NCBI RefSeq assembly: GCF_964355755.1
Contig: NC_092671.1
Location: forward strand, 34,854,304 to 34,918,303
Direction of reading: 5' to 3'
DNA length: 64,000 bases
Source of the DNA: Antedon mediterranea
Taxonomy: Eukaryota > Animalia > Echinodermata
In this document: positions 3,801-49,730 of the stretch, one piece after another
How positions within the stretch are numbered: the first letter of the stretch is position 1
Layout of the letters: each line of letters begins with the position of its first letter
The notes under the pieces: model-generated
Told to the model about the DNA's origin: nothing
Databases searched by the model: none
Seen by the model: the letters and a program-made list of their open reading frames with translations, nothing else
Translations under genes and position numbers: made by a program

Positions 3801-4415
3801 CACATTTCCAAGTTATTTAGATGAGTTATTTAAACTCCAGAAAAGGGCATTACGAGCTATAACATGGTCAAAGTTTAATGATTCAATGACTGAATGTTTC
3901 TATAAATTTAAACTTCTTAAAATTGCTGATATCAATAAGTACCAAATTGGGCTTTTCATGTATAATGTTACTACTAATCAGGACGTGCGTTTTTCATCGC
4001 TCTTTATTAAAAATGGTTCTTACCATAATTATAATACAAGATCTAAAGACAAAATGAGACTCAGAAAACGTAATCGTACTTCTACTAGTTTTACTGTGTC
4101 ATGTGTGGGACCCAAATTGTGGAATGACTTGAATTACGAACTACAAAGTACCAAATCAATATATATATTTAAATCATTGTTTAAAGAACATTTATTATCA
4201 TTTTACAAATAATTTTAAAAATTATACTTGTTGCAGGATTTAGCTTTTTTATTATTTATGTTTTAGTTTTTTAGGCTAGTTAGGGACTTAGGGGGACACA
4301 ACTAATCAAGCTCTTTTGAGTTTTTATGTGTTTCCTTTTCATCTTTTTTATGTTCTCATATATTGTTGTTGTATATTTTCATGATAGAGGATGAATAAAG
4401 AATATTTGAATTTGA
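865..4415 (+). mobile_element. L2/CR1-group (Crack-like) non-LTR retrotransposon, 5'-truncated within ORF1
   Basis: ORF1-like C-terminal remnant ADGRIHVLTK...DLNKLHST* (865-954); APE+RT ORF2; 3' aataaag and (tttgaa)2 tail; TSD aaggcc at 859-864 and 4416-4421. Confidence 0.92.
1196..4212 (+). pseudogene. LINE ORF2 (apurinic endonuclease + reverse transcriptase) split by one -1 frameshift near 2383
   Basis: APE motifs HMNARSL, SETW, YRPP, GDFN, TDHLPI in ORF 1196-2458. RT motifs NYRPISIL, DLSKAFD, GVPQGSILGP, FADDT, KFLG in ORF 2527-4212. Restoring one A in 'agaattcgg' gives continuous RNSEKQYYSKKL...TWKVLN. Confidence 0.9.
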
Positions 4416-4684
4416 AAGGCCCTGTTAATTGTCATTTAGGCTCTTTAGTGCAAAGACTCCACATAAGGCCCTGTTAATTGTCATTTAGGCTCTTTAGTGC
4501 AAAGACTCCACATAAGGCCCTGTTAATTGTCATTTAGGCTCTTTAGTGTAAAGACTCCACATAAGGCCCTGTAATTTGTCATTTAGGCTCTTTAGTGCAA
4601 AGACTCCACATAAGGCCCTGTAAATTGTCATTTAGGCTCTTTAGTGCAAAGACTCCACATAAGGCCCTGTTAATTGTCATTTAG
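4416..4684 (+). repeat. 49-bp minisatellite, right part (~5.5 copies)
   Basis: Same unit resumes in register after the LINE. Confidence 0.97.
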
Positions 4685-22759: not shown

Positions 22760-23754
22760 GTAAGTTGTATTATTTTGCTCATATTAGAATAACAATCAGG
22801 TAAATATGTATCCTGTGCTGTATCTACCCTGTTTTTAGGTCACCCAAATAAACACATTTATTTTCAAGACAATCATTAAAAAAAAATAAGATATAAGATA
22901 ATATATTTTATCGTCTTTTTATTGCCATTATGTTACTTATTTTATTTAAATTCCTTTTTTTTTTTTTTAAATGTAAAATAACGAATGCAAATATGGTTTT
23001 AAAGACATAAAAATCAATCATTTTATGTACAGTATATACAGCAAATGTTTTTATTACAACTACTTTTAACGTTGTAACATATAAACGAGAGGGAAAAATA
23101 TGCTTAAAAAATATATAGAGCATGATAATAAAAGTGGGACGAACCCACACAAGACAAAAAAAAATATACATTTGAATGTGAAAAATTGCATTTAAATTTT
23201 AAAATGTAGGCATGTTAAAAGTCATCAGTGTAAAATATGTGATAGGAAAAATTCAGATACAAACACTAGAAATTCATGTAGTCACTTAAAGATGTATTTC
23301 CCCCTTAAAAAATAATTCTTAAAATAATTTTTGTTGTTGAATTTGCATTTTAATGTCACATAATAGCTATCCATTTTGACCAAACATTGGATCGAAAAAT
23401 TTTTATTTGCCTGAAAAAAACTGTAATTTAAAGCAAAAAAAATAGTCAAATTGGCTGCCAGCCAATGGAATTTAACAATTAATTTTATCATTTTATAAAT
23501 GAAAACATTAATTTCTTTCTTTTTTTCTACGGAAGTGATTAACTTTATTAGAACTACAAAATAACCTATTCAAAGTCTGATTTAATTTTCATATTTTTTG
23601 GGGGACAATACATCTTTTGTACATGTACAGTATATTATATAAAAACTATTTAGTATACTAAACAGGAGATTCAAGTTTATTTACAGGTAAACATAAAAGG
23701 ACATTTTTCACCAAATGAAAGATGGGTTTAAAAATGTAATGTTTTTCGGTTTAG

Positions 23755-23895
23755 GCCCTTGAACGTGACCTGATACCCTTCCTATTAACGTTACTTGAGA
23801 GTGGTATGCGAGAGCTACCAAACCCAGCAGGTATCAAAGCGCAGATTGTCAAGTCCATCAAGGCCATGCTGACTTGTTTGGAGAATGGTGAAAAA
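23755..23895 (+). CDS. DNAJC13: DNAJC13 exon (ALERDLIPFLL...KAQIVKSIKAM...GEK)
   Basis: GT-AG, in frame. Confidence 0.92.
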
Positions 23896-23949
23896 GTAGG
23901 CTTTAAATATACATTTTTACTTTTTGCAACTTTTTGATATAGGTTGTAA

Positions 23950-24142
23950 AGGCAGGCACAGACGAGCGGTAATGGTAAGCCTTAAATGGCAAGCGAAAAT
24001 ATAGAATCTATGTTATTTCTTATGACCATTTACACAAAACGCAGAGCGAATGGGCGGGTTGAACAGAAACCTGCTCAGGATAGATAAAGACAAGCACATT
24101 GTTTTCTGCTTACCGTTACTACTCGTCTGTGTGAATTGGTCT
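23950..24142. mobile_element. Degenerate Harbinger-like MITE immediately 3' of the nested Ig gene stop codon
   Basis: Imperfect TIRs cacagacgagcggtaatggtaagc / gcttaccgttactactcgtctgtg; taa/tta flanks. Confidence 0.55.
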
Positions 24143-24149
24143 TTATGTT

Positions 24150-25514
24150 TTAAATCTTTACCTGTTTCTTGTTAAGTTTGATAGCATTAATATAAAAATG
24201 TTCATTTTTCTCTGGGTCATCTTTTTTCTTTTGACCATCTTTTTTGTCTCGATCATCTGTTTCCTCATGATCATCTCTTTCGTCTCTATCATCTTCTTTC
24301 ACATTCATTGCCATGTAATCATACACATTTTGTGTGACCTTGTCTTCGTTGCCTATATTGTCATTAGGTCTCATGGCCATGTAATCATACACATTTTGTG
24401 TGACCGTGTCTTCGTTGCCTATAGTGTCATTAGGTCTCATGGCCATGTAATCATACACATTTTGTGTGACCGTGTCTTCGTTGCCTATAGGGTCATTAGG
24501 TCTTATGGCCATGTAATCATGCACATTTTGTGCAACCATTTCTTCGTTGCTTTTAGGGTCATCGGGCCCTGTGTTCATATCGATTGGTTGGTTGTTTATA
24601 TCTGTTACTTCAGTGATTCGTGTCATCCTCATATCGTCTCTGTCAGACATCTGGTTAGAATTTCTCTTGTACAGTAATGAGATTATTAGGAGTAATAGTA
24701 AAATAAAAATAACTGTACCTAGAGAGAGGCCAACGACCAACAACCTAGTGGGTTCGCCGAGTGTTTTGGATTGCCCTTCTATTTTTAACCTTGATGGTTC
24801 TATTTCACATGTTTTTGTGACATTCTCATTCCAAATTACCCTACATTGAAATGTAGCATTTAAATCCTGTTGTTTAACAGTGAAATCAAAGTACAGCGTG
24901 TATTCTTTGAAATTATCCTCACCGCTATAATATACTTCAATCTGAACCTGTTGTTCATTTCTCCACCATTCAATGCTCATTTTTGGATAGCCTATCATAG
25001 ATGTACAGGAAAATGCAACTTTCTGCCCGATTAAATATTTCTGAAAACTGGTAGCATCACAAATAGGATATTGCGCTGGTGGAGGATAATCAACTAACAG
25101 AACAATATTTCCGTAGGTGACTAAGTCACTATATGCACTACTGGTATGATAGGTATTACAAGTATAACAATTTCGATGAAGATATTGTCCAAGTCCTTCT
25201 TTAATCCATATTGTCAGTTCTGCTTCAGTGGAGTTGTTAACAGAGTAGGCCTGTGCTTCTTGGCTAAAGTCAGTTAGTTTGCCTTCCATATAAATTTCAC
25301 CAATACCGTGACATTTATGCCATGAAATAGTGTGTTCTGAGGTTGTAGCTCCTGTACAGTTCAGGTCAATTATATCACCTTCAGGGACACGTACGTATAC
25401 AGACTTGTACGGATTTTTTGGAGGATTAACTGTTTTTCTCGTTTGAGCTTCAGTCATTTGTAATGCAGTGAGTAAAATCATCAACACAATATTTACAATT
25501 TTGCCTCTTGCCAT
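24150..25514 (-). CDS. Single-coding-exon type-I membrane Ig-superfamily receptor (454 aa), nested antisense in a DNAJC13 intron
   Basis: Signal peptide; V-like domain (IDLNC..ISW..YTC); C2/CD80-like domain (YPPP..PIC..FSC..GYP..IEW..DLNATFQC); TM LLVVGLSLGTVIFILLLLLIISLLY followed by KR; tyrosine-motif tail. Good start context gcagtcATGG. Confidence 0.88.
   Translation of the reverse strand: MARGKIVNIVLMILLTALQMTEAQTRKTVNPPKNPYKSVYVRVPEGDIIDLNCTGATTSEHTISWHKCHGIGEIYMEGKLTDFSQEAQAYSVNNSTEAELTIWIKEGLGQYLHRNCYTCNTYHTSSAYSDLVTYGNIVLLVDYPPPAQYPICDATSFQKYLIGQKVAFSCTSMIGYPKMSIEWWRNEQQVQIEVYYSGEDNFKEYTLYFDFTVKQQDLNATFQCRVIWNENVTKTCEIEPSRLKIEGQSKTLGEPTRLLVVGLSLGTVIFILLLLLIISLLYKRNSNQMSDRDDMRMTRITEVTDINNQPIDMNTGPDDPKSNEEMVAQNVHDYMAIRPNDPIGNEDTVTQNVYDYMAMRPNDTIGNEDTVTQNVYDYMAMRPNDNIGNEDKVTQNVYDYMAMNVKEDDRDERDDHEETDDRDKKDGQKKKDDPEKNEHFYINAIKLNKKQVKI
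24305..24570 (-). repeat. 66-bp coding tandem repeat (VTQNVYDYMAMRPNDTIGNEDT), ~4 copies
   Basis: ccatgtaatca recurs every 66 bp (24311, 24377, 24443, 24509). Confidence 0.95.
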
Positions 25515-26299
25515 GACTGCAGGTTACCGTATGTTAATCTAAATTGAATTTGAAAAGCTTTTAATTACAGTATTATAAATATTTCTTTAAATGGAATAGT
25601 TTTTTTTTAAATATATTCTGCAAATATACTTCTGAAATACACCATTGGTTTGTAGAATTTTGTTGGTCTTTATTTCCTTCCTTACTCTGATGATAAATTG
25701 ATTATTTTATCATAAGGAACACCTTTTTCTGAGTAATTTTCAACAAGACAAGGCCATATACATGGCTGCAGTCGCGTGCTCAAGTTAGTGTTTACCGACC
25801 GAACAACATAGAGAGCTGCGTTGCATGCGACTAAAAATACTGTAAACTTTGTAACAGTTTTTAATCAGTTCAGTTAATTAATATGTTTTCCTCTTAAATA
25901 TACATATATGAATGTAATCATGTGTTACCCAGCTTTACCCATTGCTGCATACTAATATACGCCCGGTAAATCAAGTAAAATAAGTCTTAGTTTATGTATA
26001 GCATCGTGGGTTTGTCTTGTGAATGGAATTGCCACCATTAAGAAGGATAGTGAATGAATTCACTTGTGGTTATCCTTGGTAATTTGCCTGAAATGTGAAT
26101 AAAAAAAAATAAATAAAAAAAAAATAAATAATGTTTTTATGATATGAATTACTACAAAATACATGTTATTAAGTAGTACATGTAAAGGTGTAAATAAAGA
26201 ATATTCACTGTAAAGCAATATTAAATTTGGGTATCTTGTTTATTATTAATACTTGCAGTGTGATGAAAAATAAACTAAGTTTTGTGTTTTTTAATATAG

Positions 26300-26399
26300 A
26301 TCCAGCAATTACTAGACAAATCAGATGTATGGGCAGCCTACAAGGACCAAAAACATGATCTCTTCATTTCAGAATCAGCTGTATCTGGTTATTTAACAG
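26300..26399 (+). CDS. DNAJC13: DNAJC13 penultimate exon ([33 protein letters not shown])
   Basis: Conserved motif; GT-AG. Confidence 0.94.
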
Positions 26400-29309: not shown

Positions 29310-30397
29310 AATAATAATAATAATAATCGGTTACTGCCCTAGATACAAAAATACACATACCAAATTATTTTTCTGTCCACCATATAGATAAAAATAATAG
29401 CATGTAACTAATTTTTCTTTCTAGGCAATTGAGCATGTTATGTTCTTTTTAAAAAATACTAAATTAACAGCTTATCATTAATAAAATGAATGTGAATCAA
29501 AAGTTTTAAGAAAACAATGTTTGTTTAAAGGTTCTTGTATTTTTGAGTAAAAAATAAATTAATAGACAACAGAAGGAATAATGTTTAACATTGTCAATAG
29601 TACCTTTCTATTGACTATGGTTTAGAATCAGTCGTGTGAGATAAGATAGTTGGAGGAAGAGGAGGTTGTACTATGGTTATAGCAATGTTTTCTAACAAAA
29701 GTGTTCCTAAAACTGAACAAACTATATCTGTTAAAATTAACTCAATGCCATAATCATCTCCGGTATTAAAAATCATCTGATATTTATTATGAAATCTCAA
29801 TTTTTATTTCATTATTATATGCTGAATTTATTATTTTTCCTTTTTTGTTTACATATAAGTATATAGCAATTTATATAGTAGTGTAAATTGTAGTTTAAAA
29901 TATATTGTGTTTATTATTGATATAGATAAATGTCACATAAGAATAACATATTTTATACAGATTCACAAATAATGGTATAGTCCTATTTTTAATGATGTTA
30001 AAAATGTTATGTTTGGTTTTTTGTTATATGGTATGACATTACTAAATGTCTTCCAATATTTGCTTGATAAATGGAAGTACTAGATAGATTATAAATTAGA
30101 TAGATTACTCTTATTAATTGTATTGATAAAGAAGACAATATGACATGCTATATCATGTGTATATAATGTATAATTTTGAAAATTAAAATATAAAGAAAGC
30201 CATGTCACCATTAATTCATAATTTTTATGAATAAAACATATTGTATGCCAATTGATTGTATAAATATATGTTTGATTCATTGTTTTGATGATTTTTTTTT
30301 GCTCATTTTTTCTTTTATTTGTCCAAAATATTTGCCCTCGGAGCTTTTAACCACTTTTCTATGAATCTCAATACTGCACCTTTTCTATAGATGATCA

Positions 30398-30860
30398 TTA
30401 AGCCCTGATCCTGTTCATCATCCCTTAAGCCCTGACCCTCTTTCTCATCCCATTAAGCCCTGAACCTCTTTCTTAATCCCTTTAAGCACTGATACTCTCT
30501 TTGTCATCCCCTTAAGCCCTGATCCTTATCCTCTGAAACCCTGATTATCATCCTCTTAAGCCCTGATCCTCTTCCACTGAAGCCCTTATCCTTATTCTCT
30601 TAAACCCTGATCATCATCCTCTTAAGCCCTGATCCTCTTCCACTGAAGCCCTGATCCTCTTCCTCCTAAGCCCTCATCCTTATCCTCTTAAACCCTGATC
30701 CTCATCCTCTTAAGCCCTAATCCTCTTCCACTGAAGCCCTGATCCTCATCCTCTTAAGCCCTGATCCTCTTCCACTGAAGCCCTGATCCTGATCTTCTTA
30801 AGCCCTGATCCCATCCTCTTAAACCCTGATCATCTTCCCTTTAAACCCTTATTATCCTAC
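30398..30860 (+). repeat. ~20-21-bp minisatellite (aagccctgatcctcttccactg-like)
   Basis: More than 20 degenerate copies. Confidence 0.9.
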
Positions 30861-32502: not shown

Positions 32503-33175
32503 CGTCGTGAGGTGGTTTCCCGAATGATCGTAAAATCAAAACGGTACTGGTTATGACCAATTAGACAATTCTTGTCACCAACTAGTCATCCGTTCATAGA
32601 AGTACTGATGTAGTAGCCTACCTGTACGGTGACCATAGAATGTGACCCGAGACATGACTAACTACGACTTTTAGATGATAGAAAGTTGAGAAAAAATTTG
32701 TTACGAGTAGTTGTACGATATGAAGATGTTGATTACAATATGTTAAAGATGTAAAACATACTACACTAGGCGTATAAACAGTAATGTTTGTTTGTAAAAA
32801 CAATTTTATGTTAAAAGATATAAGGAAGAAAAGCAAAGAGATTGTGGAGCGGCTGTACCTGAATATACAATACAAGTATTGTAAGGTTAAAAACTAGAAA
32901 TTTAGCCGATCTTGTCAAAGGTCAAGCGCCTTCAGCCTGCCACGTTTCGATATTCGATATTGAACTTGACCTGACATGGTTCCACAATAATTTTATGTTA
33001 AAAGATATAAGGAAGAAAAGCAAAGAGATTGTGGAGCGGCTGTACCTGAATATACAATACAAGTATTGTAAGGTTAAAAACTAGAAATTTAGCTGATCTT
33101 GTCAAAGGTCAAGCGCCTTCAGCCTGCCACGTTTCGATATTCGATATTGAACTTGACCTGACGTGGTTCCACAAT
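32503..33175. mobile_element. Insertion resembling a solo LTR, containing a near-perfect 187-bp tandem duplication (32802-33175)
   Basis: Termini cgtcgtga (degenerate TG) ... ccaca; interrupts a block homologous to DNAJC13 intron sequence; TSD not clean. The duplication itself is certain. Confidence 0.4.
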
Positions 33176-33962
33176 ATCTTTATATGAAAAATTTGTAGAG
33201 TGGATAGAAAATTATTAAAAGGTTATTGTTAAACTGTTTTTAATATACGTTATTCGTTTTAATGTTAAACTATGTTTTTTTCATACCAAGCCTACCACAC
33301 CCTTAAAAAATAGTGAATAATTCAGGTCTTTTGTCCAAAGACTCAAAAAGGTGTTCAGAACAAAACATTCTTTAAAAACCAGAATTCTTCTAATCCTACT
33401 TCTTTCTACAAAATGTCTAGAAAATTAAACTGAATTATGGGATATGTTCAAGATGTCAAATTGTGTCAAAGCTAATCAGAGACTTTTTTTGTCTACCATT
33501 CTTTTGTCTATTCTATGTGTGGTAGGGAAAAGAGGAAACAACATAATCATCTTAATTAATTAAAAAAAATATAATATTATTTAATTAAATCTAAGCTTTA
33601 AGCAAACATACATATACAAAATACACAAGATGATACACGATTTAGGCACTTTTTAAAGACTAACACACAGATATACCCACCTATAGTCATCATCGGTTAG
33701 ATGGAGAGCAAAAGAAGAAGATATGTTTTTTCAGTTTCAAAAGGCAAATACATAGCCAAAAAATGTTGTTATTGTTTTTAAGCGTAGGCTAGGCTAGGCT
33801 AGGCTAGTCCTACTATAACAAAGTTCAGAATAAAAAAAAAACAATATTAATCACTATAAGCTTGGATGTTGTCAAATGATTCATGTGAAGTTAGGCTTCA
33901 CTACTAAGTAGTAGTATATCATGCAAGCTTATTGTTTATTGAACACCGTACACATATTCTGT

Positions 33963-34739
33963 TCACATTATTTTAACAACCTCATACACATCTTCGATCA
34001 TTTTTTTGTTGCCTTTAGCGGTTGGTTTGTTGTATATGTCTGTTACTTCAGTGATTACTGTCATCTTTTGATCATCTTTGTTTGTCATCTGGTTTGAAGG
34101 ATTTCTCTTGTACAGTAATGAGATTATTAGGAGTAATAGTAGAATAATAATAACTGCACCTAGGGACAGTCCAATGACCAAGGTCCTTGTCGTTTCAATG
34201 CACGGGGTCTCTGATGTTGTAATTGTTGTCTCTGGTGTTGAGGTCATACTCTTCGGTGTTGTGGTCACTGTCTCTAATGTTGCGCTCCATGTCTTTGTTG
34301 ATGCTGCTGTTGTAAAATATAATTGTTTATTAATATGTTTCAGCACTCTGCATTTTTTCCTATGCAACTTTTCTTTATAATACAACTTACATATGAGGTC
34401 AATTTCATCACCTTCACGGTGTTTAGTTGGCAGTTGACATGTTATGGTCCCATCCTTTGCTGCTGTTGTCAACTGTGATTTTTCAGTTTGTTCCTTTATT
34501 GTGCCGCATGTGTTGACATCCTCTTTCCAAGAAATATATTCAGATTGGTATGATCTCATTTCGTCATTATCCCAAATACATCTGAGATAAATGGTATGAC
34601 CTTCATAAGTACATACAATAGGCCTAGTATTACCAGATTTATAATTCCATTCTTTTTCAGATATTGTTTGAGTCATTTTCAGTACATTTGCAATGAGTGA
34701 AGTTATCCACAAAATATTTACAACTTTGCCTCTCGCCAT
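33963..34739 (-). CDS. Single-coding-exon type-I membrane protein (258 aa), paralog of the nested Ig receptor: degenerate Ig-like ectodomain, Thr-rich stalk, TM, short tail ending DVYEVV
   Basis: Same start (cctgcagtcATGGCRAGAGGCAAA; MARGKxVNI); 40-nt identical TM/juxtamembrane DNA (24661-24700 = 34102-34141); AATAAA on - strand ~23 nt after the stop. Confidence 0.8.
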   Translation of the reverse strand: MARGKVVNILWITSLIANVLKMTQTISEKEWNYKSGNTRPIVCTYEGHTIYLRCIWDNDEMRSYQSEYISWKEDVNTCGTIKEQTEKSQLTTAAKDGTITCQLPTKHREGDEIDLICKLYYKEKLHRKKCRVLKHINKQLYFTTAASTKTWSATLETVTTTPKSMTSTPETTITTSETPCIETTRTLVIGLSLGAVIIILLLLLIISLLYKRNPSNQMTNKDDQKMTVITEVTDIYNKPTAKGNKKMIEDVYEVVKIM

Positions 34740-36148: not shown

Positions 36149-36277
36149 TTATGACTTTAGTGTATGGTTTATCATGATATTTGCAAGGGCGTTGCGACGG
36201 CATCTCCAAAATCCAAGAGGAATGCTGTAATGTTTCACCAGCATCAACCAGCTATCACACTCTTCAGAATTTTCACA
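36149..36277 (-). CDS. RhoGEF last exon (CENSEECDSW...RRNALANIMINHTLKS*)
   Basis: tttag| acceptor; TAA stop. Confidence 0.87.
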   Translation of the reverse strand, partial: CENSEECDSWLMLVKHYSIPLGFWRCRRNALANIMINHTLKS

Positions 36278-36370
36278 CTAAAAAGGATTAAAATAAATAC
36301 AGGTCATATAAAGTACGGGACATTTTCAGTACTCTAAAAACATGATTTAATTTATAGTACATAATTTTAC

Positions 36371-36463
36371 CTTTAAGTCAATGGTGTCGCCCTCCATTTC
36401 TGTAATGGTAAATTCATCTGATGTGTCGGAGCTTACAATACATTTTTCTAGTTGAAGTGGATC
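36371..36463 (-). CDS. RhoGEF exon, PH region (DPLQLEKCIV...IDLK)
   Basis: GT-AG, phase 0. Confidence 0.87.
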
Positions 36464-36728
36464 CTGTAAAAACATGAAATAATATAAATTGTTAGAATCA
36501 TTTCTTATTAGTTTAATTAGTATGCTTACAAAGAGATGTGAACCATACTTTTAGAACTTTCTAAATGGGTATACTAAGAAAGCCTTTGGGAACTAATTTC
36601 ATATGTTTACTTCACTTTTGCTTTGTGAAAATATAACCTTCATCTTTCACCTCATGATGAATTATTTGGCCCATTGCATAAAACATTCATTATTTGTATA
36701 TTATAGTTTGGCTAACTACTGTATTTAC

Positions 36729-36860
36729 CCTAACAACAGCACATTTTCCAGCAGCTTTTTCTTTTATCAGAACCAATGCAGCTTTCTGACCTCCATCGGC
36801 GTGAGGAAACAGCATACCATTCTTGGGAAGGTTTGCTTCAATTTCAGACAAACGATCAAC
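36729..36860 (-). CDS. RhoGEF exon, PH region (VDRLSE...AALVLIKEK...VVR)
   Basis: GT-AG, phase 0. Confidence 0.87.
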
Positions 36861-36949
36861 CTAAAAGAAAAGATTATATTCTAAAATGACCTTTTCATTT
36901 TGGAATAAAGAATGAATAAATAAAGCATGTGTATCTAGAAAAAAACAAT

Positions 36950-37292
36950 TTTTATTTTATTCAATCGAAACCAACAGCGATAATTACCGCCACTAACAGG
37001 TTTGATACAAACAAAGCCAGGACTGTTTAAAGCACCTTGATTGGTCCTGACATTGATCAAGGGCTTCTCTCGTCCAGTGCCCACCCTGACCAGAGGTCTG
37101 AGGCAGATACTAGATGCAGGGGCTGCCATAAGAGTCAGCAGTACTGATTTCAAATGCCTAACGGGACCCCGGCTCCGTATACAGCACCCGCTATTCCCAG
37201 ATGGTCTCCCATCCAAGCTCTAACCAGGCCCAACATTGCTTAACTTCGGTGATCTGACGAGAACCGGTGTTTCAACGTGGTAAAGCCGTAGA
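36950..37292 (-). mobile_element. 5S rRNA-derived SINE (SINE3-type): 5S head 37177-37292 plus ~225-bp unrelated body and A-rich tail
   Basis: - strand ctacggctttaccacgttgaaacaccggttctcgtcagatcaccgaagttaagc...ggatgggagacc..ctgggaatagcgggtgctgta is a diverged 5S. No oligo-T terminator follows it; the body ends in aataaaataaaa. Confidence 0.75.
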
Positions 37293-38225
37293 ATTGAAGG
37301 AAGAATAAAGAAAGAATGGAGGAGAAGCAGCCTGATGCATATAAGGAAAAAAATACAATTGAGCCTGGTGCATACAAGAAATGGTGATTGAAGATGGATG
37401 CTTCCAACATTGACAATACAGGCAATGGACTGTCATATAGATGATGATTATGATGATACTATGTCAGTGACAATGGAAACATTAAGACTATCTTAAAGGT
37501 TGGGTTCACACTCGATCACTGATGATTAACTGTGATCTTATTGTCTCGGCAAATACAAGACATCGATAATTACAGTGAAATTATGTTTTTTATACTCTGA
37601 TGTAATTAGATAGTCCATGAAATTCCGTGAAAAAATTGCAAGATGAGTCTCACCAACTTCTCCAGAGTGGTGAAAAGCATATTATGCCTGATCAATGTTT
37701 CTTGTGAATTTTCAATCAATCATAATATTTTTTTAGTCATAATAATGATAACCATAACGTGAAATTTCACTCTTCCCTGGTAAACTATCATAATGATAAT
37801 TCTTTATTTTAGATGGAAAATGGACACACTTAATAATAATGATCCTCAAGTATACAGCCACTTATCTATCCACAAGAGGGAGTTTGTGATGCAGTACACC
37901 AGGATAACCCTCTACTTATCATGAAAGATGTTCTACTGTGCAAACTAAAGCCATTACACCTAGTGAGTACAACAATTCTAACCGCTCGAACATTTAAGTT
38001 GCTTCCAATCCAAGTTCTATTGATTCTTTCTTTAATATAATCAATTAAAAAATCAAGGGATACAATACTTCTCAATTGCATAGTTTTAAATTATAATCGA
38101 TCTCCCAGTTTTTGTTCAACAAAATATTGTAAATGAATGTTTTAGTTTTATTTGAACTTGAAATCATATCTTTAATGCACTGTTGAAAAAATTACCATGT
38201 TCCAAAAAACATAAAATTACTATAC

Positions 38226-38381
38226 CTTTCCAGTGCACACCAATACAGCATAGACAGGCACATGTCTTGGGGTACTGATCATTTTTTGCCATATCTGTTC
38301 CAGTCCTGGGCCTAGCATGAGCTGTGCCATGTGGACTAGATGTACCGTTTCCAGGTTCCAACATACACTTTCAACAGCCAC
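38226..38381 (-). CDS. RhoGEF exon (VAVESVCW...VLVCTGK)
   Basis: GT-AG, phase 0. Confidence 0.85.
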
Positions 38382-38481
38382 CTATGAACAACAATTATTA
38401 AATATAAAATGTTTGTTTTTATTTTCCTTATATATTAGTCCATTCTTTTTATTCATTAATTCTTCATTTGATTATATTTAC

Positions 38482-38577
38482 TTTTCTAATTTCAGCTTTG
38501 AGGTTACTTGGTATTGAGGTAGAGAATGAACCATTGCGTTTCACAGACAACTTTGTACCAGAGGTCCCCTGACTTTG
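38482..38577 (-). CDS. RhoGEF exon (QSQGTSG...AEIRK)
   Basis: GT-AG, phase 0. Confidence 0.8.
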
Positions 38578-38839
38578 CTGGAAAATAATTATAACATAAA
38601 CGGTATTTTATTTTGATAGAATTTACAAACAAGTTTCAAAAGAATTTAACAATTTAATGCAACAAAAAAATGAAACATTATTTATCAGCATCTTTGTTTT
38701 AGTTATACTCAGATATTGGTTTTACAGAGTGTAAACCAATATACTGTAGTAACCACCAATTATTGCTGTATTACCAGTATCATATGGAAGTTCCATAATA
38801 CAGTATCATATGTGTATCACATGTGGAGCTTGTACTTAC

Positions 38840-38954
38840 CACATTAACTTCTTCTAAGAAGTCTTCTGTTCTTTTCTGAGCTTCTTGTAACCTCTCTTTA
38901 TCCTCGTGCCATCCTGGTGTCGATTTGTATATACGGTTAAGAAGCAGTGGATAT
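38840..38954 (-). CDS. RhoGEF DH exon (YPLLLNRIYKSTP...EEVNV)
   Basis: DH conserved region 3 motif. Confidence 0.92.
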
Positions 38955-39336
38955 CTATGTAAACAAAAGTTGATGAATTTAAATGTACCAATTATAATTA
39001 TCAGCATCATCATGACATCATCATCATAGTATCTTTGTCATTTTCATCACAATAATTGTCACAATTCTCATCGTTCTCATTGTTATAGCACACAGTACCA
39101 TAAATGTTGCAGACGTGGGTCCAGTTGACAGAACTGACTGAAATAACTCCATTGGTATCATGGTTTCTTACAATGTAATAATGACTCACAAACAGTAAGC
39201 TTATTTGTTGCATCATCATTGATAAAATAACAACCAAAACTAATACAGGTGCAATAAATATTTAAAAATATAATCTGATAGAGGGCGCTAGCCAAAAAGT
39301 TAATTCATATGATGATGACGATGAGCTTCAGATTAC

Positions 39337-39482
39337 CTCATACTTCTTTGTACAGGCACCATCAGGAATGACTTTAAATGTTGTCGACGAACTGCTCTGT
39401 TGTCATTTTGAGATACCTCCAAGAAAACACGCAATAATTGTTTCTCACTTTCAAGTGATTTCAAAAGGGCTGCACCGGTTGG
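39337..39482 (-). CDS. RhoGEF DH exon (PTGAALL...FLMVPVQRSM)
   Basis: PVQR motif. Confidence 0.92.
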
Positions 39483-40038
39483 CTTAACATTTTGAAATAA
39501 AATACAAATTTATTATGAATTTTATAGTATTATAAATAATATTATAATAAATAATAATATAATGGTATTATAATGTAAGAAAAACATTACTTTTATAATA
39601 GAAAGAGAAAAACACCTCATTTGCATATTAATTTATGACACCTGTTTTTCTCAACTACATACAGAACCTCTTATACAGTCATTGTTGTGTGTTGTTCTAC
39701 CTATATGGTCAGGTCAGTGGTGGTGGTGTTGGTGGTGGTGTTAGATTGTGGAATAACAGACAATTTCTGACTTACGAGGAAGGTAGGATAACACTTTAAA
39801 TTTACTTTTTCTCTTTAAAACGTAAATAATATATGGTAGTAGTACTGTATAATCATAGAGATATTATAGTTCACTATAATATCTCTATGGTATAATCTAC
39901 ACTAGAAAATAATGAGTAAAGTTGTTCCTAGGCATTCATTCCTCTGCAGGATCACACAGGTAGGTAGTAAGTTTGCCCTGTCTGTTTCATCGTCTTGGTA
40001 GGGCTAGGCCTAAGGTTTTGAAATCTAAGTCCACTTAC

Positions 40039-40125
40039 TTGATTCACACAATATGCCTCAAATGCTGGAAACAGTATACGTATATTATCCAGAAATATTT
40101 TTCCAATGCTTATGTTTATGTAGTC
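40039..40125 (-). CDS. RhoGEF DH exon (DYINISIGKIFL...EAYCVNQ)
   Basis: IGxxF and YC motifs. Confidence 0.9.
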
Positions 40126-40220
40126 CTAAAAATGGAAAATTATAACAGAAAATTAAAGATTGTTTTAATATTTAGGATTTTTTCGAAAGATAATGTGCTT
40201 AATTGCTTCTAGTTTCTTAC

Positions 40221-40298
40221 ATAATCGTCTTGATCAGCAGCATTGTCGGCGGAATCTTGCAAGCAATCTGAAAATGTTTCGCTCACTTCAATAAGCTC
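40221..40298 (-). CDS. RhoGEF DH exon (ELIEVSETF...DDY)
   Basis: GT-AG, phase 0. Confidence 0.88.
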
Positions 40299-40873
40299 CT
40301 ATAAAGACAATAAAATAGTTCAGTCACAAATGCTTCCAGTGCTTGCTTGAGTGTTCACCCTCTTCCAAAATCAAAAAGTTGATGTATATCATACAATCAA
40401 AGAATCAAGGGAGACTAAAATATGGCCATATTTTTTTCAAAATATTGTATAAAAATACTACTACAGCCATTTTCAGTGGTTCCTCTGATTTTTAGGTTGT
40501 GTTGGCATTGACTATCTTTTCTAGTTGTAAAATAACAACTCTTCGAACAATTGTAAGTGCCCTATCTTTAAATGCGTTCCCACCCAAACCCCTTCACCCT
40601 TTTCATCCTCATAACCATTTTAACTCCTCATAAAATCAAATCTATTCATAATATTTATAGATTTAATTGAAGAATGAATTTTTACTTGCGTGTACACACT
40701 GTAAGTTCCAGTATGTTCAAACTGAGCTAAGACTTTGATCAATTGTGAAAAAAAATTACTGTAACATTGGAAAATTGTTGAGGTGCAATTGGAGCATAAT
40801 GGTTTCAGTAAAGGAAAATTTAAAATTAAAAATGGAAATCATTCATGATGCGTTAAGGTAAACAAAAAATTAC

Positions 40874-41069
40874 CTGTAGATTAATGAAGACTGCCTTGAG
40901 TTGTTCTGGTGTAAGAAGACCAGCGTTTTCCATAGCAACGTAGAACTCTTTGTGCATGACCTTTATGTCTTCTAAATAATTTACCTCTGTTTGTATAAAT
41001 TCCGTAATCGCTTCTTTTCTCGTTATTCGCTTTGTATTGCATTTTTTACATAAATAATCGCTACCATGT
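40874..41069 (-). CDS. RhoGEF exon (LCKKC...RKEAITEFIQTEVNY...FINLQ), start of DH domain
   Basis: E..TE..Y DH conserved region 1 motif. Confidence 0.93.
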
Positions 41070-42338
41070 CTAAGAATAAATAGTAAGATATTAAATTAAT
41101 AACACCAATATAGTAATTGGGCAATAAATAGATCCTCTGATAGAAATCTTTCAACTCTGTGTATCTGATTTTTTTAATTTAACATTCACTTAAAACATTT
41201 TAAGTTTCGTTCACACTACAGGAACGATCCAGAATGGAATAATAGTCAGTTGGCTAAACTAATCGTAAAGCCTGATCATGTGATTCTGCTTGGCCTACTG
41301 GGATTGATTATCAAAAACAGTTAATGTCAATTTGACCTATGATTTCAAATCATGATTTTGGTGGTTCTAGAATTGCTTGGTTTTTCTGTTAGTGAGAAAT
41401 TCAAATTTATGGTATCCAGGATTGTTTGATTTTATTAAAATATTCAAACTGACCTGAACAGGAACAAAATAATATAAATGCATACTACTTCCTTGGGCCA
41501 ATGCATAACCAATTTCGTTTGTGAACATAGCTGTATTTTATTATTTTAACATGAGTATTGCAACAAAAGGTTTATTTTCATAGTTTGAATAGATATGGAT
41601 TTTTACAATACACATTTAATTAAAAATATGAGTTCATACTCGTAAAACTTCATTTTCAAGATGAAATCAATATTTTATACAGTATTTGACAAAATCATTA
41701 CTTCATTACTATGGTAACATTAAACATAAAAACGACATATTTTTCTAACTTGAATATTAATAAATTGCTTAAAGGTTTATATTTAAGAAAACTATAAACA
41801 AATGCACACCATTTGTTAAAAGCTACTGCCGATTTTACTTTTTCCAAAACAAAAAAGCACCATTTTCCATTTCATAAAACATAACAAGTATAAATGTAGC
41901 TAAAGAGAGTAACCCAGCAGTAAGGCAGAGGCACTTCAAACCAAAGTCATAGCACTTGCAATCTTTCCATGCGACCATAGTTCTGGTGGTAGAACAAGTG
42001 TTCTTGGACATAAAAGAGAGGTCCAGTGTAGATACACTGTATGAATTGTACTGTATGCACTCAAGGAAAGAACCCAAAGTATTTCCATGAATTTACGTAA
42101 CCCAGTTCCCTGGTTCAATTTCAGCCGCTGGTGATGTTACAGCAGTTATTGAGCCTGCTTTGTATATAAGGCTCACCTGTATCCAATCCCAGTAAGCTTC
42201 ATTTGAGCTGCAATAGGGATTATTATACACCAAGAACGAAGTGGACATTCTTGACACATCACCACAAATAAAAATATATACATATATCTCATAACTATAT
42301 TATACTAAACTTATCACACTATGTATAGCTTCATGTAA

Positions 42339-42480
42339 AGCTCTGTCTACACTATCAAACTAGTTTGATAAGAAAAAGTGATGTGCCCAAATATACGGTA
42401 GTGATGTGACATCATCATGTGCATATATATGGGCACATCACATTTATTGTAAAATAAAGTTTGATATTGTAGACAGATCT
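42339..42480. mobile_element. Harbinger-like MITE copy
   Basis: Same family as 14138-14260. Confidence 0.72.
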
Positions 42481-42493
42481 TAACACAACTTAC

Positions 42494-42633
42494 TGTATTA
42501 TTTGTTGTTTGTGCTCAAAATAATTACTGCAGTCATAGCAAGTTGTACTGGTTGTTGAATCGCAAGAGACGCGACGGCCATTTGTCTCGGAACCTACCCC
42601 ACTGTCTACTCTTTCGATATCAGTACTACCAGG
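42494..42633 (-). CDS. RhoGEF exon (PGSTDIERVDSGVGSET...CYDC...)
   Basis: GT-AG; phase matches neighbours. Confidence 0.87.
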
Positions 42634-44349
42634 CTAGAAAAACATAAATAATTCATTGTTTGCTGATACAGTATAGAAAATATATATTTTTGACTTATTC
42701 TTATATTTGATTTGATTTTGATTTGATTTATTAGCATCTCATTAAAAAGACATACACAGTTTAAGAAACAGAGATTTCAAAAATGTTAAAAATACAAAAA
42801 CAGAGATGCAGGATAGCCCATGAAAGTCTCAATGTGAGACTTATTTCCAATGGGGTCCGTAAAGTAATATTATCTTTTATTTTTGCTACAGTATATTGGA
42901 AAAGGATCAGCATTACAATTATTTATTTAGTTAGGTATCGTGTCTCATACACATAAATAGTATTCCTTTGTGATTCTGTTGCTTCATGTACTACAGTACA
43001 GTCAACTCTCCCAATACTGTACAGCTAAAAACCGGAAACTCTCCCAAAACCAAACTTTCCTAAGGTCCAAAAGGTTCTTTTTTTTAAAAATCAAATTGGG
43101 AACCATGCAGGCTTAGCCCAGCCCAAAGGGCTGTCTATTATTACTGTGAAATTATTGAGATAGTGTAACAACATTTTGATTTTCCTGTTTTGTTTTACTG
43201 TTTGAAACAAAAAGGGCATACATGCAATATGGCACACAGGCCGGTCTTTAACTTATATGCTAGTTTAATTTACTTTTCATTATGCCATACCCCTCCCCTA
43301 CAATGCTATCATTCTATCAGGAAAGGGGTGAAGTAAATTTGGCAAAATTTGTATTGTTTTTTGTATCATTTTTTATTTTTGATAATAAAAAAGATCACTC
43401 TCAAGAAAAGGTGAGATAAAGTGTGGCATTATTTTGAGAATTGAATTATTTAATTTTTGATAATTATTTACAATATTTGTTAAGAATAATTGGACTTTCA
43501 ATATATAAAAACATCTAATAGCAAAAGCAACTGCCTTAATAGTTGCTATAGCAACATAAATGCACAATTAATTATCTCTCAATTTATAGAAGCCAATTAT
43601 TTTCTGGAACTAATTTTCAAACCTTTCTTTCCACACAAACAAAATTGAGTGACATGAGGATCAATAACATACTACTATGTTAATTGTAATGACATAGAAG
43701 GTATTAAAGCACATAATAATTTATTTCCTACTATCCTTCCTACAATTTTAAATTGTGCTGATAATACTAAATCGATTTTATGTAAAGCTACAATACCATA
43801 TAATTTACATTATAATATTTACTTATTTTTTATTTAACCTTATTAAAGGGTGAACCATGCTGCCAATCATAAGGCCCCAAAATGTGTATACAACTAAATT
43901 CTTTTTGCAATGTGAGATAATATTTTTGGTTTTTTTCAGAGGATCTAAAATATATCGAAAATATTAAATTATACTTATTATTATATAATTATATTGTACT
44001 AAACAATTTTTAAGTTATCATCCTAAATTGTGTGTTTTCATTTACTGTACAGTAGTACATGTATATAACTAGAATATTCCTATTGATTTTCAGTAAAATC
44101 AATATCAAATATTATTGGTGATGTCACAAATCTTCATCTTCAATATGGGCCAAAATAATAAATAACACGTCATTTGGTGTTGATATTTTTATTTTGCCAA
44201 GTATTTCTCTCAGTTTCTAAGCACAGAATTTAATTTATTTGAAATGTTACAAAATTTATAAAATATGTTTTTTAGATGTCTATTCGTATGACTGTAAAAA
44301 TATATTTATAACAAGAAAGTGTGCAAATTTAATTTTTCAGAACACCTAC

Positions 44350-44457
44350 CAGCAATTTATCTGGTTCTTCTATATCATGAGCGCCCCCAACGCCACTGTC
44401 TGTACTCAGTGTACTTGCTCGGTGTCGAATCTTTCTACCTCTTCTTTTCACATCACC
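44350..44457 (-). CDS. RhoGEF exon (GDVKRRG...STDSGVGG...DKLL)
   Basis: GT-AG, phase 0. Confidence 0.82.
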
Positions 44458-44799
44458 CTGAAATGAGCAAATCTTTTTTTCAATATTAATTTCAAATCAA
44501 ATATTCTTCATTCAAAGACACATCAAAATTCAATATAAAAATTAAAATAGGCAATTAATAAGATGCAAGGAAACACATAAAACATAAGCTTTTACTGTAG
44601 GTTTCATAACAAGACAATTGTATTGTCTTCCCATTTAATTCAATAGACAAAAATACACCCTTCTCAACATAAAAACCAAACCACATAATAATGATATATT
44701 CCATACAAGTCGAGGTGGCCGAAAACGACACCTGATCCTGCCAATTATCTGATTTGCGAACGTTTATTGATATTGTTCCTACAATTATGTTAAACTCAC

Positions 44800-44915
44800 T
44801 TGCTGAAATGTAGATTCATTTAAAGCCTCAAAGCTTGATGTAACATGCAAACTCGGGGTGACTCGACCGCTGCTCGGTAAGCTTTCTTCTGATACATCTG
44901 AGCGAGGTGATTTTC
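44800..44915 (-). CDS. RhoGEF exon (KSPRSDV...TFQQ)
   Basis: GT-AG; phase consistent. Confidence 0.8.
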
Positions 44916-45928
44916 CTGAATTACAATAATGAAAAAATCATCAGTAGTAGAGGGCTCAACAAATATTTAATTAAATTTATAAAACTAATAGTTCAATCAT
45001 AATAATGATATACTGTATATTATTTATTTATGTATTATTCAAGCCAATGTGTTTTGGCTTTAAAATAAATTTAGATTTTTATTATAGGCTGTCCGAACAA
45101 ATACTGTATTCAATTGTTGTAGTCTCATAATAATGAGGCTTAGTTGAGGGACTGTTTTTTTCTTTGGGTGAGAAAAAAATCCTGAAACACTAACAGGATT
45201 TGAACCAAAGACCCTGGGATTGGTACGCAAGTCACAGTGCCACTACCAATGACGTAATGACAACAAGTCATTTAGTTTATTTGACCTCAATTAAGCTTAA
45301 TGACCTTGTTATGATTAAAGTTGATGGCATCAGAGATAATTATCAAAAGCGTTTGAAAAATCAATACAGCCAATGGTGTATGAATATCAATTAAATGGGA
45401 TGACCACAGAAAGTAATGAGAACAAGTTTATTGATGGGAACAAGTGGGAACAAGCATAAATTTAATATCCAAGGAAAATCCAATATTTTTGAGGGAGGAC
45501 TAACCTAATTAAAACATTATCAAAAATTAGTTGTAATTTTATTTGGGGGAACGCTCACCCAAATCGCAATCCCCTGGGTTCCCCCTCTGAATATTTATTT
45601 TTTTGAATTGTATATTGAATCCAAAACTAAATTCGATTATATAGCCAATCTCTCCCTGTAGTTTATTTATATCCAAATTGCAGACTACCTACTTTCCCTT
45701 CCCTTTATTTCTGGCAATTTTTTTTGTATTGCTTTGTGACGCACACTCAATTTGTGAAATTGTTAACATCCTCAAATGCATTCCATGAGCAATTGGCTGC
45801 TTTGGTATGTTCATGGGAGTGACTTATACTGTAAAAGGTATGTTGAAATACAAGAAAATTAAGGTAATTGTCATACATCAAATGCAAACAAATTATGGCA
45901 AACATATAAAAAAATGTATGTGTCTTAC

Positions 45929-46091
45929 CGTGAGAACTATTTCTTCTAACTTCCCTGTCACTTGCATGTCTTGTTGGCGGCTGAGTTTCCTCTTGCGTAC
46001 TATCGTCAATGGATCGTCTCTGCCTCTGTTTCTTCTTCTTCACATCAGCTGCTTTGGAGTCGGAGCATGAACGTGCCAAGCCAGCCTCTTG
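45929..46091 (-). CDS. RhoGEF exon (QEAGLARSCSDSK...NSSH)
   Basis: GT-AG; phase consistent. Confidence 0.8.
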
Positions 46092-49000: not shown

Positions 49001-49241
49001 CTGCTAGCACTATCCCTTGGTTCCGCCCCTACTTTTACACTATCCAACATTTAAAAGTAGTGGTGTATCTCTTTACTATTTATTCATAGCAACTTTGTGA
49101 ATGGCAGAAATATTTATTTTAAATCAAAAAATGTTTAATTTCAGAAAAAAATGTATTGAAAAAGTACTTTTATTTTCTAATTTTCTGTAAATAAGTTTTA
49201 AATAATAGTAAATTGGAAATTATAAAAAAAAATGTACTGAC

Positions 49242-49330
49242 CTCTTTATTTTGTTTTGTTCTTTTGTCACTCCCAGATCTTCGATGATGTCTCTCTGTTT
49301 TGGCAACTTCTCTCTCTACTTTGTTTTCGT
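49242..49330 (-). CDS. RhoGEF exon (ENKVERE...NKE)
   Basis: ttgcag| ... |gtcagt; phase consistent. Confidence 0.8.
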
Positions 49331-49730
49331 CTGCAATTCAACCATTAAAATAAAATGTTACTATTAATTATGGAAGGTTTTTTGAAGTAAATGCTCAACA
49401 ACAGGCATATTTAAACAACTTAATATTTACATTAAAATTATTTTAAGTGGTAAAGAACAAAATTTAATGTATAATATTGAAAGAAGAAGTGTTGGTTGCA
49501 ATCAAGTTTTAAATTTTCAGTCAATTGTGGTCTGGAAAAAACTCATGGACAATATCAGATATGTGAATTGCTATGTTGAGAAGAAATCTGCAAATATTTG
49601 GAAGCTTTTGTAATCCCAAAAACAAAAATGTGTATTGCAACTAATAATGATGATACATACAGGTACGTAAAAATTATAAATAAAATTTAAAAAAGAAGTT
49701 TAAAGATTAGTGAATATAAAGGAATCTTAC

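What the first reader, a model, noticed from the sequence alone, without database searches (positions are those of the whole stretch)
24150..25514. Intact Ig-superfamily signalling receptor nested antisense inside a DNAJC13 intron
Seen: a 454-aa stop-free ORF fills most of the intron between DNAJC13 exons 23755-23895 and 26300-26399, on the opposite strand. It encodes signal peptide, two Ig-like domains, TM and a tyrosine-rich tail in one exon. Known: animal IgSF receptors usually have about one exon per Ig domain, so an intronless ectodomain-to-tail CDS suggests retroposition or intron loss. DNAJC13/RME-8 is an endosomal receptor-sorting co-chaperone. Inference: this is a lineage-specific immune or recognition receptor residing in a housekeeping gene, and standard annotation could miss it.
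Basis: partly seen in the sequence, partly recalled or inferred. Interest (0 to 1): 0.85.

Follow-up and report, generated by a model that had tools for sequence, protein, structure and literature searches.

The report
Feather-star Ig receptor inside DNAJC13 intron
A feather star carries an unbroken, intron-free reading frame for a predicted two-immunoglobulin-domain surface receptor backwards inside an intron of the housekeeping gene DNAJC13; it is likely a stray copy from a fast-changing receptor family that would signal through repeated tyrosine motifs, and its expression is untested.

Summary
A 454-codon frame (25514-24150, minus strand) fills 57% of the second-to-last coding intron of DNAJC13 in an Antedon feather star. 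It encodes a signal peptide, a V-like and a C2-type Ig domain (AlphaFold pLDDT 81; B7/Neph/nectin-like folds), one membrane helix and a tail of four 22-residue repeats. Three repeats carry YMxM, a PI3K-p85 docking motif; there is no ITIM or ITAM. The closest annotated relatives are uncharacterised crinoid proteins (best 42%) on other sequences than DNAJC13, so the nesting looks recent and incidental. No retrocopy hallmark was found. Intron-free Ig receptor frames also occur in two distant loci and in kirrelL, and this scan earlier noted three clusters of them on other DNA of this genome. DNA-level duplication is therefore likelier than retroposition. Expression, ligand and immune role are unshown. 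Verdict: a real, apparently unannotated member of an undescribed crinoid family in an ordinary nested arrangement.

The parts
24150..25514 (-). Receptor ORF (P0001), 454 aa, single coding exon
25443..25514 (-). Predicted signal peptide, about residues 1-24; 87% identical in DNA over 62 nt around the start codon to the neighbour paralog
   Evidence: sequence
25086..25406 (-). Domain 1, V-like Ig fold (Cys53-Cys119, Trp65)
24780..25082 (-). Domain 2, C2/I-type Ig (Cys170-Cys224, Trp183, plus family-conserved Cys152 and Cys236); most variable part between haplotypes
24669..24737 (-). Membrane helix, uncharged, with a GxxxG motif shared with the paralog
24305..24562 (-). 3.9 tandem copies of a 66-bp unit (22 aa); overlapping YDYM/YMAM in three copies, YMAI in the first
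24186..24194 (-). C-terminal YxN motif (Tyr441), possible Grb2-type site
   Evidence: motif assignment recalled
25539..25563 (-). Candidate splice acceptor 24 nt upstream of the ATG (score 7.5, between the 95th and 99th background percentile); weak hint of a 5' non-coding exon
23896..26299 (+). Host intron of DNAJC13, GT..AG, 2404 bp, second-to-last coding intron
23755..23895 (+). DNAJC13 coding exon before the host intron
26300..26399 (+). DNAJC13 coding exon after the host intron
33963..34739 (-). Second intron-free paralog, 258 aa: same type of signal peptide, membrane helix and juxtamembrane stretch, different cysteine-rich ectodomain, Thr-rich stalk, short tail with one tyrosine motif; lies between the DNAJC13 3' end and exons of a RhoGEF gene

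Best explanation
This is an unbroken, intron-free frame nested antisense in a DNAJC13 intron that likely encodes a working cell-surface recognition receptor of a crinoid Ig family, likely copied here as DNA from an already intron-free relative. Inferred mechanism: the V-like and C2 domains bind a ligand on another cell or a microbe; clustering, possibly helped by the GxxxG helix, lets a tyrosine kinase phosphorylate the tail; the three YMxM sites, 22 residues apart, dock the SH2 domains of PI3K p85, and the last YxN may dock Grb2. It would act as an activating co-receptor in the manner of CD28, CD19 or DAP10, not as an ITIM or ITAM receptor. The number of docking sites was raised by tandem duplication of a 66-bp unit. 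The DNAJC13 intron is likely only a tolerated landing site. Shown: frame, nesting, domain 2 family match, motifs, paralogs. Predicted: fold. Inferred: expression, ligand, phosphorylation, partners, route of origin.
For: The ORF is far beyond chance. All six family cysteines and both core tryptophans are kept at only 43% identity to the nearest relative. The model has pLDDT 81 and pTM 0.71; best structural matches are Rst D1-D2 (Z 12.9, rmsd 3.8, 193 aligned), B7-H3, Lutheran, B7-1, ICOS-L and Neph1, mostly within 1 Z of each other. Against the paralog, pN/pS is 0.40 in the membrane block and 0.51 in the juxtamembrane block; a neutral frame mutated to half their synonymous distance stays open in 0.17% of 3000 runs. 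A second haplotype shows no stop at the 25 sites I read and no indel is listed. YMxM arises in 0.9% of shuffles of the repeat-collapsed tail; YMXM/YXXM are p85 docking motifs (PMC2192136 abstract start; PMC2358943 passages). Family: crinoid relatives form the nearest branch; genome contigs of 5 to 8 other sequences share short V-domain, C2 or membrane segments. Intron-free relatives. The annotated relatives are on a 26.06-Mb and a 289-kb sequence while DNAJC13 is on a 40.93-Mb and a 5.84-Mb sequence of the same two species.
Against: Transcription is not shown. No near-identical protein exists among 5.8 billion clusters although A. mediterranea RefSeq proteins are in that collection, which could mean low or no expression. 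No AATAAA or ATTAAA lies in the 254 nt between the stop and the next host exon. Haplotype differences in domain 2 and stalk are 12 amino-acid-changing to 4 silent codons, close to the neutral site ratio of about 4 to 1, so they do not show purifying selection; 25 random changes avoid a stop 33% of the time. The signal-peptide block has pN/pS 2.1, on one silent change. None of the four nearest relatives has YMxM, and only one has any YxxM, so the PI3K motif is not conserved; a plain YxxM appears in 16% of collapsed-tail shuffles. Exon structures of the nearest annotated relatives could not be read.
Confidence: 0.55

Rival explanations
1. The gene works, but as an adhesion or cell-fusion molecule like kirrelL, Neph or nectins, and the tyrosine motifs serve sorting (YxxPhi) or cytoskeletal coupling, not immune recognition.
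For: The top structural match is Rst (Irre/Neph family), with Neph1, nectin-4 and CD166 close behind. KirrelL is an intron-free echinoderm Ig membrane protein needed for cell fusion (PMC8903837 introduction). YDYM and YMAM also fit the YxxPhi sorting pattern (assignment recalled).
Against: Developmental adhesion genes are usually conserved and single-copy. This one has no relative above 42% although the host gene is 93% identical in Anneissia. It is multi-copy and polymorphic. It does not group with the three-Ig Kirrel-named pair P0047/P0060.
Confidence: 0.2
2. It is a young duplicate that is silent or dying: intact only because it arrived recently.
For: Absent from protein collections; no canonical polyadenylation signal inside the intron; near-neutral ratio of changes in domain 2; high-copy repeats on both flanks.
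Against: No near-identical source copy showed up: other contigs laid on the ORF match only short segments. Constraint in the membrane region and the open frame since the split from the paralog. Two samples show no frame-breaking change.
Confidence: 0.15
3. This copy is a retrogene made from the spliced mRNA of an intron-containing Ig receptor, possibly by a LINE enzyme.
For: Single coding exon, nested and antisense, a pattern commonly ascribed to retrotransposition (PMC3933685 passages). LINE-type reverse transcriptase frames are present in the window.
Against: No poly(A) tract after the stop; only short AT-rich direct repeats between the flanks. No spliced parent identified. Paralog and distant relatives are also intron-free. 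An ancient retroposition at the root of the family remains open.
Confidence: 0.15
4. The nesting is functional: receptor and DNAJC13 (endosomal sorting) are co-regulated or regulate each other through antisense overlap.
For: The nearest canonical polyadenylation signal on the minus strand that I saw is at 23676-23681, beyond host exon 23755-23895, so a 3' UTR could overlap that exon (sequence).
Against: Annotated relatives in two crinoids are not on the DNAJC13 sequence; the paralog sits outside the host gene; most nested genes are functionally unrelated to their hosts (PMC4394429 passages).
Confidence: 0.05

Closest known systems
Uncharacterised crinoid V-C2-TM proteins: Antedon mediterranea XP_071960071.1; Anneissia japonica LOC117111446, LOC117111448, LOC117111454
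   Same: Same two-domain ectodomain and cysteine pattern; 42%, 33%, 28% and 28% identity; nearest branch in the tree (97/93 with XP_071960071.1).
   Different: Different stalks, membrane helices and tails; none has YMxM repeats; on other sequences than DNAJC13; no function known; exon structure not seen.
Echinoderm kirrelL (PMC8903837; introduction and passages read)
   Same: Echinoderm Ig-domain membrane protein whose gene lacks introns.
   Different: KirrelL is conserved across all echinoderm classes and drives skeletogenic cell fusion. This gene is lineage-restricted, multi-copy and has two Ig domains; it does not group with the Kirrel-named pair. I had no verified kirrelL sequence.
Vertebrate YxxM co-receptors (CD28, CD19, c-kit; PMC2358943 passages) and the B7/nectin V-C ectodomain layout
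   Same: Tail with p85-type YxxM motifs; V-C2 tandem fold close to B7-1, B7-H3, ICOS-L and nectins.
   Different: At most 20% structural-alignment identity; multi-exon genes in vertebrates (recalled); here the motif is amplified by a 66-bp repeat. Resemblance, not orthology.
Hydractinia Alr family (PMC9546547 passages) and Botryllus FcoR/fester family (PMC12582321 passages)
   Same: Invertebrate, multi-copy, polymorphic Ig-superfamily type I receptors with tyrosine motifs.
   Different: Those are multi-exon, alternatively spliced, clustered in a histocompatibility locus, carry ITAM/ITIM/hemITAM motifs and extra Fn3-like or Sushi domains; none of these is present here.
Nested antisense receptor genes such as LRRTM1-3 in alpha-catenin introns and OMG/EVI2A/EVI2B in NF1 (PMC3933685, PMC4394429 passages)
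   Same: Surface-protein gene inside an intron, opposite strand, unrelated host.
   Different: LRRTM nesting is ancient and conserved in jawed vertebrates; here the nesting is not shared by the annotated relatives.

Membership tests
Ig superfamily type I membrane protein | Ig beta-sandwich domains with B- and F-strand cysteines and C-strand tryptophan | tested here: met
   Pfam above cut-off for domain 2; Cys/Trp columns; model and fold searches cover both domains
Ig superfamily type I membrane protein | Signal peptide plus one membrane helix | tested here: met
   One hydrophobic segment at about 260-282; signal peptide judged from sequence and alignment only
V-set domain (domain 1) | Match to the V-set profile | tested here: inconclusive
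   No PF07686 hit for P0001; 16 of 24 alignment members hit it, including the nearest relative below cut-off; domain 1 alone aligns to V-type domains of CD96 and CRTAM
ITIM/ITAM immunoreceptors (incl. Alr, FcoR) | ITIM or ITAM consensus in the tail, or a charged membrane residue for an adaptor | tested here: not met
   No ITIM, ITSM or ITAM in the tail and an uncharged helix
PI3K-recruiting YxxM co-receptors | YxxM/YMxM motifs in the cytoplasmic tail | tested here: met
   Three YMAM and three overlapping YDYM, all from one amplified unit
PI3K-recruiting YxxM co-receptors | Tyrosine phosphorylation and p85 binding | not testable with these tools
   Needs phosphopeptide binding or pull-down
kirrelL | Orthology to sea-urchin kirrelL | tested here: inconclusive
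   Separate from the Kirrel-named pair P0047/P0060 in the tree, but no verified kirrelL sequence was at hand
Nested intronic gene | Coding region wholly inside an intron of another gene | tested here: met
Nested intronic gene | Independent transcription unit | not testable with these tools
   No suitable RNA data were on offer
Retrogene | Poly(A) remnant and target-site duplication | tested here: inconclusive
   None convincing; these marks decay with age
Retrogene | Intron-containing parent gene | not testable with these tools

The most novel reading that the evidence does not exclude
Crinoids have a mobile, intron-free Ig-receptor cassette family that spreads single copies into introns and gaps, keeps a shared signal peptide and GxxxG membrane block while swapping or rapidly replacing ectodomains, and tunes signal strength by the copy number of a 66-bp YMxM repeat. 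This gene would then be a polymorphic, PI3K-recruiting activating co-receptor of an undescribed echinoderm recognition system, with its neighbour at 34739-33963 as a short-tailed partner or decoy.
Probability: 0.25. Interest if true: 0.65.

Novelty: new member of a known kind. Interest (0 to 1): 0.36.

Why it matters
Echinoderm Ig-superfamily receptors are little studied, and this one is missing from the protein collections searched, so nested single-exon members are probably under-counted. The locus offers a compact test case: two neighbouring paralogs with shared membrane blocks but unrelated-looking ectodomains, allelic variation concentrated in one domain, and a repeat-amplified YMxM tail that predicts PI3K recruitment. 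The nesting and the lack of introns are by themselves ordinary.

Tried and rejected
Whole-genome search: no genome is held. Expression: no RNA holder listed; the one run guessed as RNA covers introns and none of the 15 joints shown (of 288) matched a DNAJC13 intron, so it was treated as DNA; this is no evidence either way. Word-based protein search with P0001 found nothing among 4086 candidates. Single-sequence AlphaFold was poor (pLDDT 46) and was replaced by the alignment-based model. Homodimer prediction gave no answer (score 0.00). Metagenome scan with the ectodomain: 190 pattern matches, none confirmed. The Ig nature of the paralog's ectodomain stayed open: V-set_CD47 E 0.009 below cut-off, hhalign probability 1%, Atlas leads only. 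The conserved CAG just before both start codons scored as a poor acceptor (about 0). The domain 1 versus domain 2 difference in amino-acid-changing variants is not significant (Fisher p 0.28). The 66-bp skip in run X1 has GT..AG ends but lies in the tandem repeat, so it was read as a repeat-number difference or assembly collapse, not an intron. The antisense plus-strand ORFs 24135-24677 and 24517-24849 were taken as shadows of the real frame and not searched. A recalled report of single-exon V-C-TM genes in the sea-urchin genome paper was not retrieved and is not used as evidence. Earlier-findings look-ups by place, sequence and relatives gave nothing for this locus.

Full report
Observation. 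The minus strand holds a stop-free frame from ATG 25514 to TAA 24150, 454 aa. In 1000 base shuffles the longest stop-free frame was 181 codons for the intron and 218 for the ORF's own composition. The plus strand carries DNAJC13: 25 exon translations match the Antedon mediterranea protein at 1305 of 1308 aligned residues, Anneissia japonica at 93% and three other echinoderms at 71-72%, so the animal is an Antedon feather star. The ORF lies in the GT..AG intron 23896-26299, which both crinoid proteins join across. It is the second-to-last coding intron, and at 2404 bp one of the longest; the longest contains a LINE.

Anatomy. Domain 2 passes Pfam cut-offs for Ig_3 (E 2e-8), I-set and C2-set_2. 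Domain 1 has no profile hit but keeps Cys53, Trp65 and Tyr-x-Cys119 in a 24-row alignment. AlphaFold2 with that alignment gave pLDDT 81 and pTM 0.71 for residues 23-243. Foldseek ranks B7-1 first (E 1e-9). VIA-align ranks Rst D1-D2 first (Z 12.9, rmsd 3.8, 193 aligned), with B7-H3, Lutheran, CD96, VCAM-1, B7-1, ICOS-L and Neph1 within about 1 Z, at 13-18% identity; the fold fixes the superfamily, not the function. One uncharged membrane helix with GxxxG follows. The tail holds 3.9 copies of a 66-bp unit, with overlapping YDYM/YMAM in three copies, YMAI in the first, then an acidic stretch and a YxN. There is no ITIM, ITSM or ITAM in the tail.

A second uninterrupted minus-strand frame at 34739-33963 (258 aa) lies between the DNAJC13 3' end and exons of a RhoGEF gene. 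It shares 87% DNA identity over 62 nt around the start codon and 84% over 166 nt of membrane and juxtamembrane region, while the ectodomains barely align. Its single tail motif aligns with the repeated motif, so the repeats likely arose by local amplification. Over 72 alignable codons pN/pS is 0.64 (membrane 0.40, juxtamembrane 0.51, signal 2.1 on one silent change). A frame mutated neutrally to half their synonymous distance stayed open in 0.17% of 3000 runs without indels. This argues for selection on the frame, unless it died recently.

Family and position. HMMER against 1.84 billion representatives gave 58 hits, 5 below 1e-10. Of the ten I looked up, the closest named ones are uncharacterised crinoid proteins: A. 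mediterranea XP_071960071.1 (42%) and three A. japonica proteins on one 289-kb scaffold with neighbouring locus numbers. P0001 groups with the first at 97/93; the branch joining it to the Anneissia trio is weak (60/34). By the sequence lengths on record, the A. mediterranea relative is on a 26.06-Mb sequence and DNAJC13 on a 40.93-Mb one; in A. japonica the figures are 289 kb and 5.84 Mb. So the annotated relatives are not nested in DNAJC13. This does not exclude an unannotated nested ortholog. Neither window protein is in the collection as an exact sequence and no close relative was found by words, so the gene seems unannotated or absent from the annotated assembly. Contigs laid at 80% likeness show 5 to 8 other sequences sharing short V-domain, C2 or membrane segments (alleles may be among them). 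Two loose ends, translated by hand, equal 9-residue stretches of XP_071960071.1, so that gene is present in the same animals.

Variation. I read 25 sites as the second haplotype of sample S2 from the 40 of 72 rows shown; two further sites were left out as doubtful, and some may come from paralogs. They change 22 codons: 15 amino-acid-changing, 7 silent, no stop; no indel is listed. Eighteen sites fall in domain 2 and stalk (12 changing to 4 silent codons) and six in domain 1 (2 to 3); the contrast is not significant (p 0.28), and 25 random changes avoid a stop a third of the time. The domain 2 ratio is near neutral and fits diversifying selection or relaxed constraint. One contig of depth 4 from sample S1 lacks one 66-bp unit in frame, a weak hint of repeat-number polymorphism.

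Origin. No poly(A) tract follows the stop, and the flanks share only AT-rich repeats of up to 12 bp. Uninterrupted signal-V-C2-TM-tail frames occur in loci L001 (408 aa; 25% identical to the ectodomain, E 5e-11 pairwise) and L002 (421 aa) from an unnamed animal in a public assembly; that these contigs are genomic is assumed. KirrelL lacks introns in all echinoderms examined (PMC8903837, passages and introduction). Unchecked notes of this scan describe clusters of 22, 15 and 12 intron-free Ig receptors on other pieces of this genome. The premise that an intron-free Ig receptor is exceptional therefore does not hold in this lineage. DNA-level duplication is the simpler route; an old retroposition at the family's root remains open. 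Nested genes are common, two-thirds antisense in humans and mostly unrelated to the host (PMC4394429 passages; PMC3933685 passages).

Mechanism. I commit, at about 0.55, to a recognition receptor with an activating PI3K-type tail. YMXM/YXXM motifs dock p85 after phosphorylation (PMC2192136, start of abstract in the listing; PMC2358943 passages). YMxM appeared in 0.9% and YxxM in 16% of 20000 shuffles of the repeat-collapsed tail. The motif is not conserved in the nearest relatives, so the assignment rests on this protein alone. The Grb2 reading of YxN and the dimerisation reading of GxxxG are recalled. Rapid divergence, multiple copies and polymorphism favour recognition over developmental adhesion, but a kirrelL-like role (0.2) and a silent young copy (0.15) stay open.

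Comparison and novelty. Hydractinia Alr and Botryllus FcoR are the nearest functional analogues but are multi-exon and use ITAM, ITIM or hemITAM motifs (PMC9546547 and PMC12582321, passages). A 2025 review of invertebrate IgSF has no crinoid or sea-urchin passage (PMC11999971). Seven searches listed no paper on this crinoid family, judged from titles and abstract starts; the library lacks most subscription papers and I opened no supplements, where genome-paper gene tables could name these genes. The gene is a new, apparently unannotated member of a known kind. The interest lies in the family and the repeat-built tail, not in the nesting. Interest 0.36.

Noticed in passing
window 33963-34739 (-): Second intron-free paralog with its own AATAAA 22 nt after the stop and candidate acceptors 66 and 331 nt upstream; ectodomain fold unresolved.
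   Followed up: partly
window 1184-4212 (+): LINE-type element (endonuclease plus reverse transcriptase, two overlapping frames) in the 4.8-kb DNAJC13 intron, flanked by two arrays of the same 49-bp repeat at 538-864 and 4416-4684.
   Followed up: partly
window 58510-60699 (+): 729-aa reverse transcriptase frame of another LINE-type element.
   Followed up: no
window about 36150-51780 (-): RhoGEF gene converging on DNAJC13; DH-domain exon at 40853-41065 (Pfam E 3e-8). The 697-aa Ser-rich frame at 49687-51780 may be a large exon of it.
   Followed up: partly
window 23996-24110 and 25748-25800: High-copy repeats on both flanks of the receptor ORF inside the host intron; the first shows an opposite-strand joint typical of an inverted-repeat element.
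   Followed up: no
window 23676-23681 (-): Nearest canonical polyadenylation signal seen for the receptor lies beyond DNAJC13 exon 23755-23895, so its 3' UTR could overlap a host coding exon.
   Followed up: no
window 30396-30849 and 32802-33190: A 22-bp purine/pyrimidine-skewed tandem array and a 187-bp duplicated high-copy repeat between DNAJC13 and the paralog.
   Followed up: no
L001 1352-2578 and L002 623-1888: Uninterrupted V-C2-TM receptor frames in an unnamed animal; the protein from L001 (P0046) and P0017 carry ITAM-like tails, a possible separate intron-free family.
   Followed up: partly
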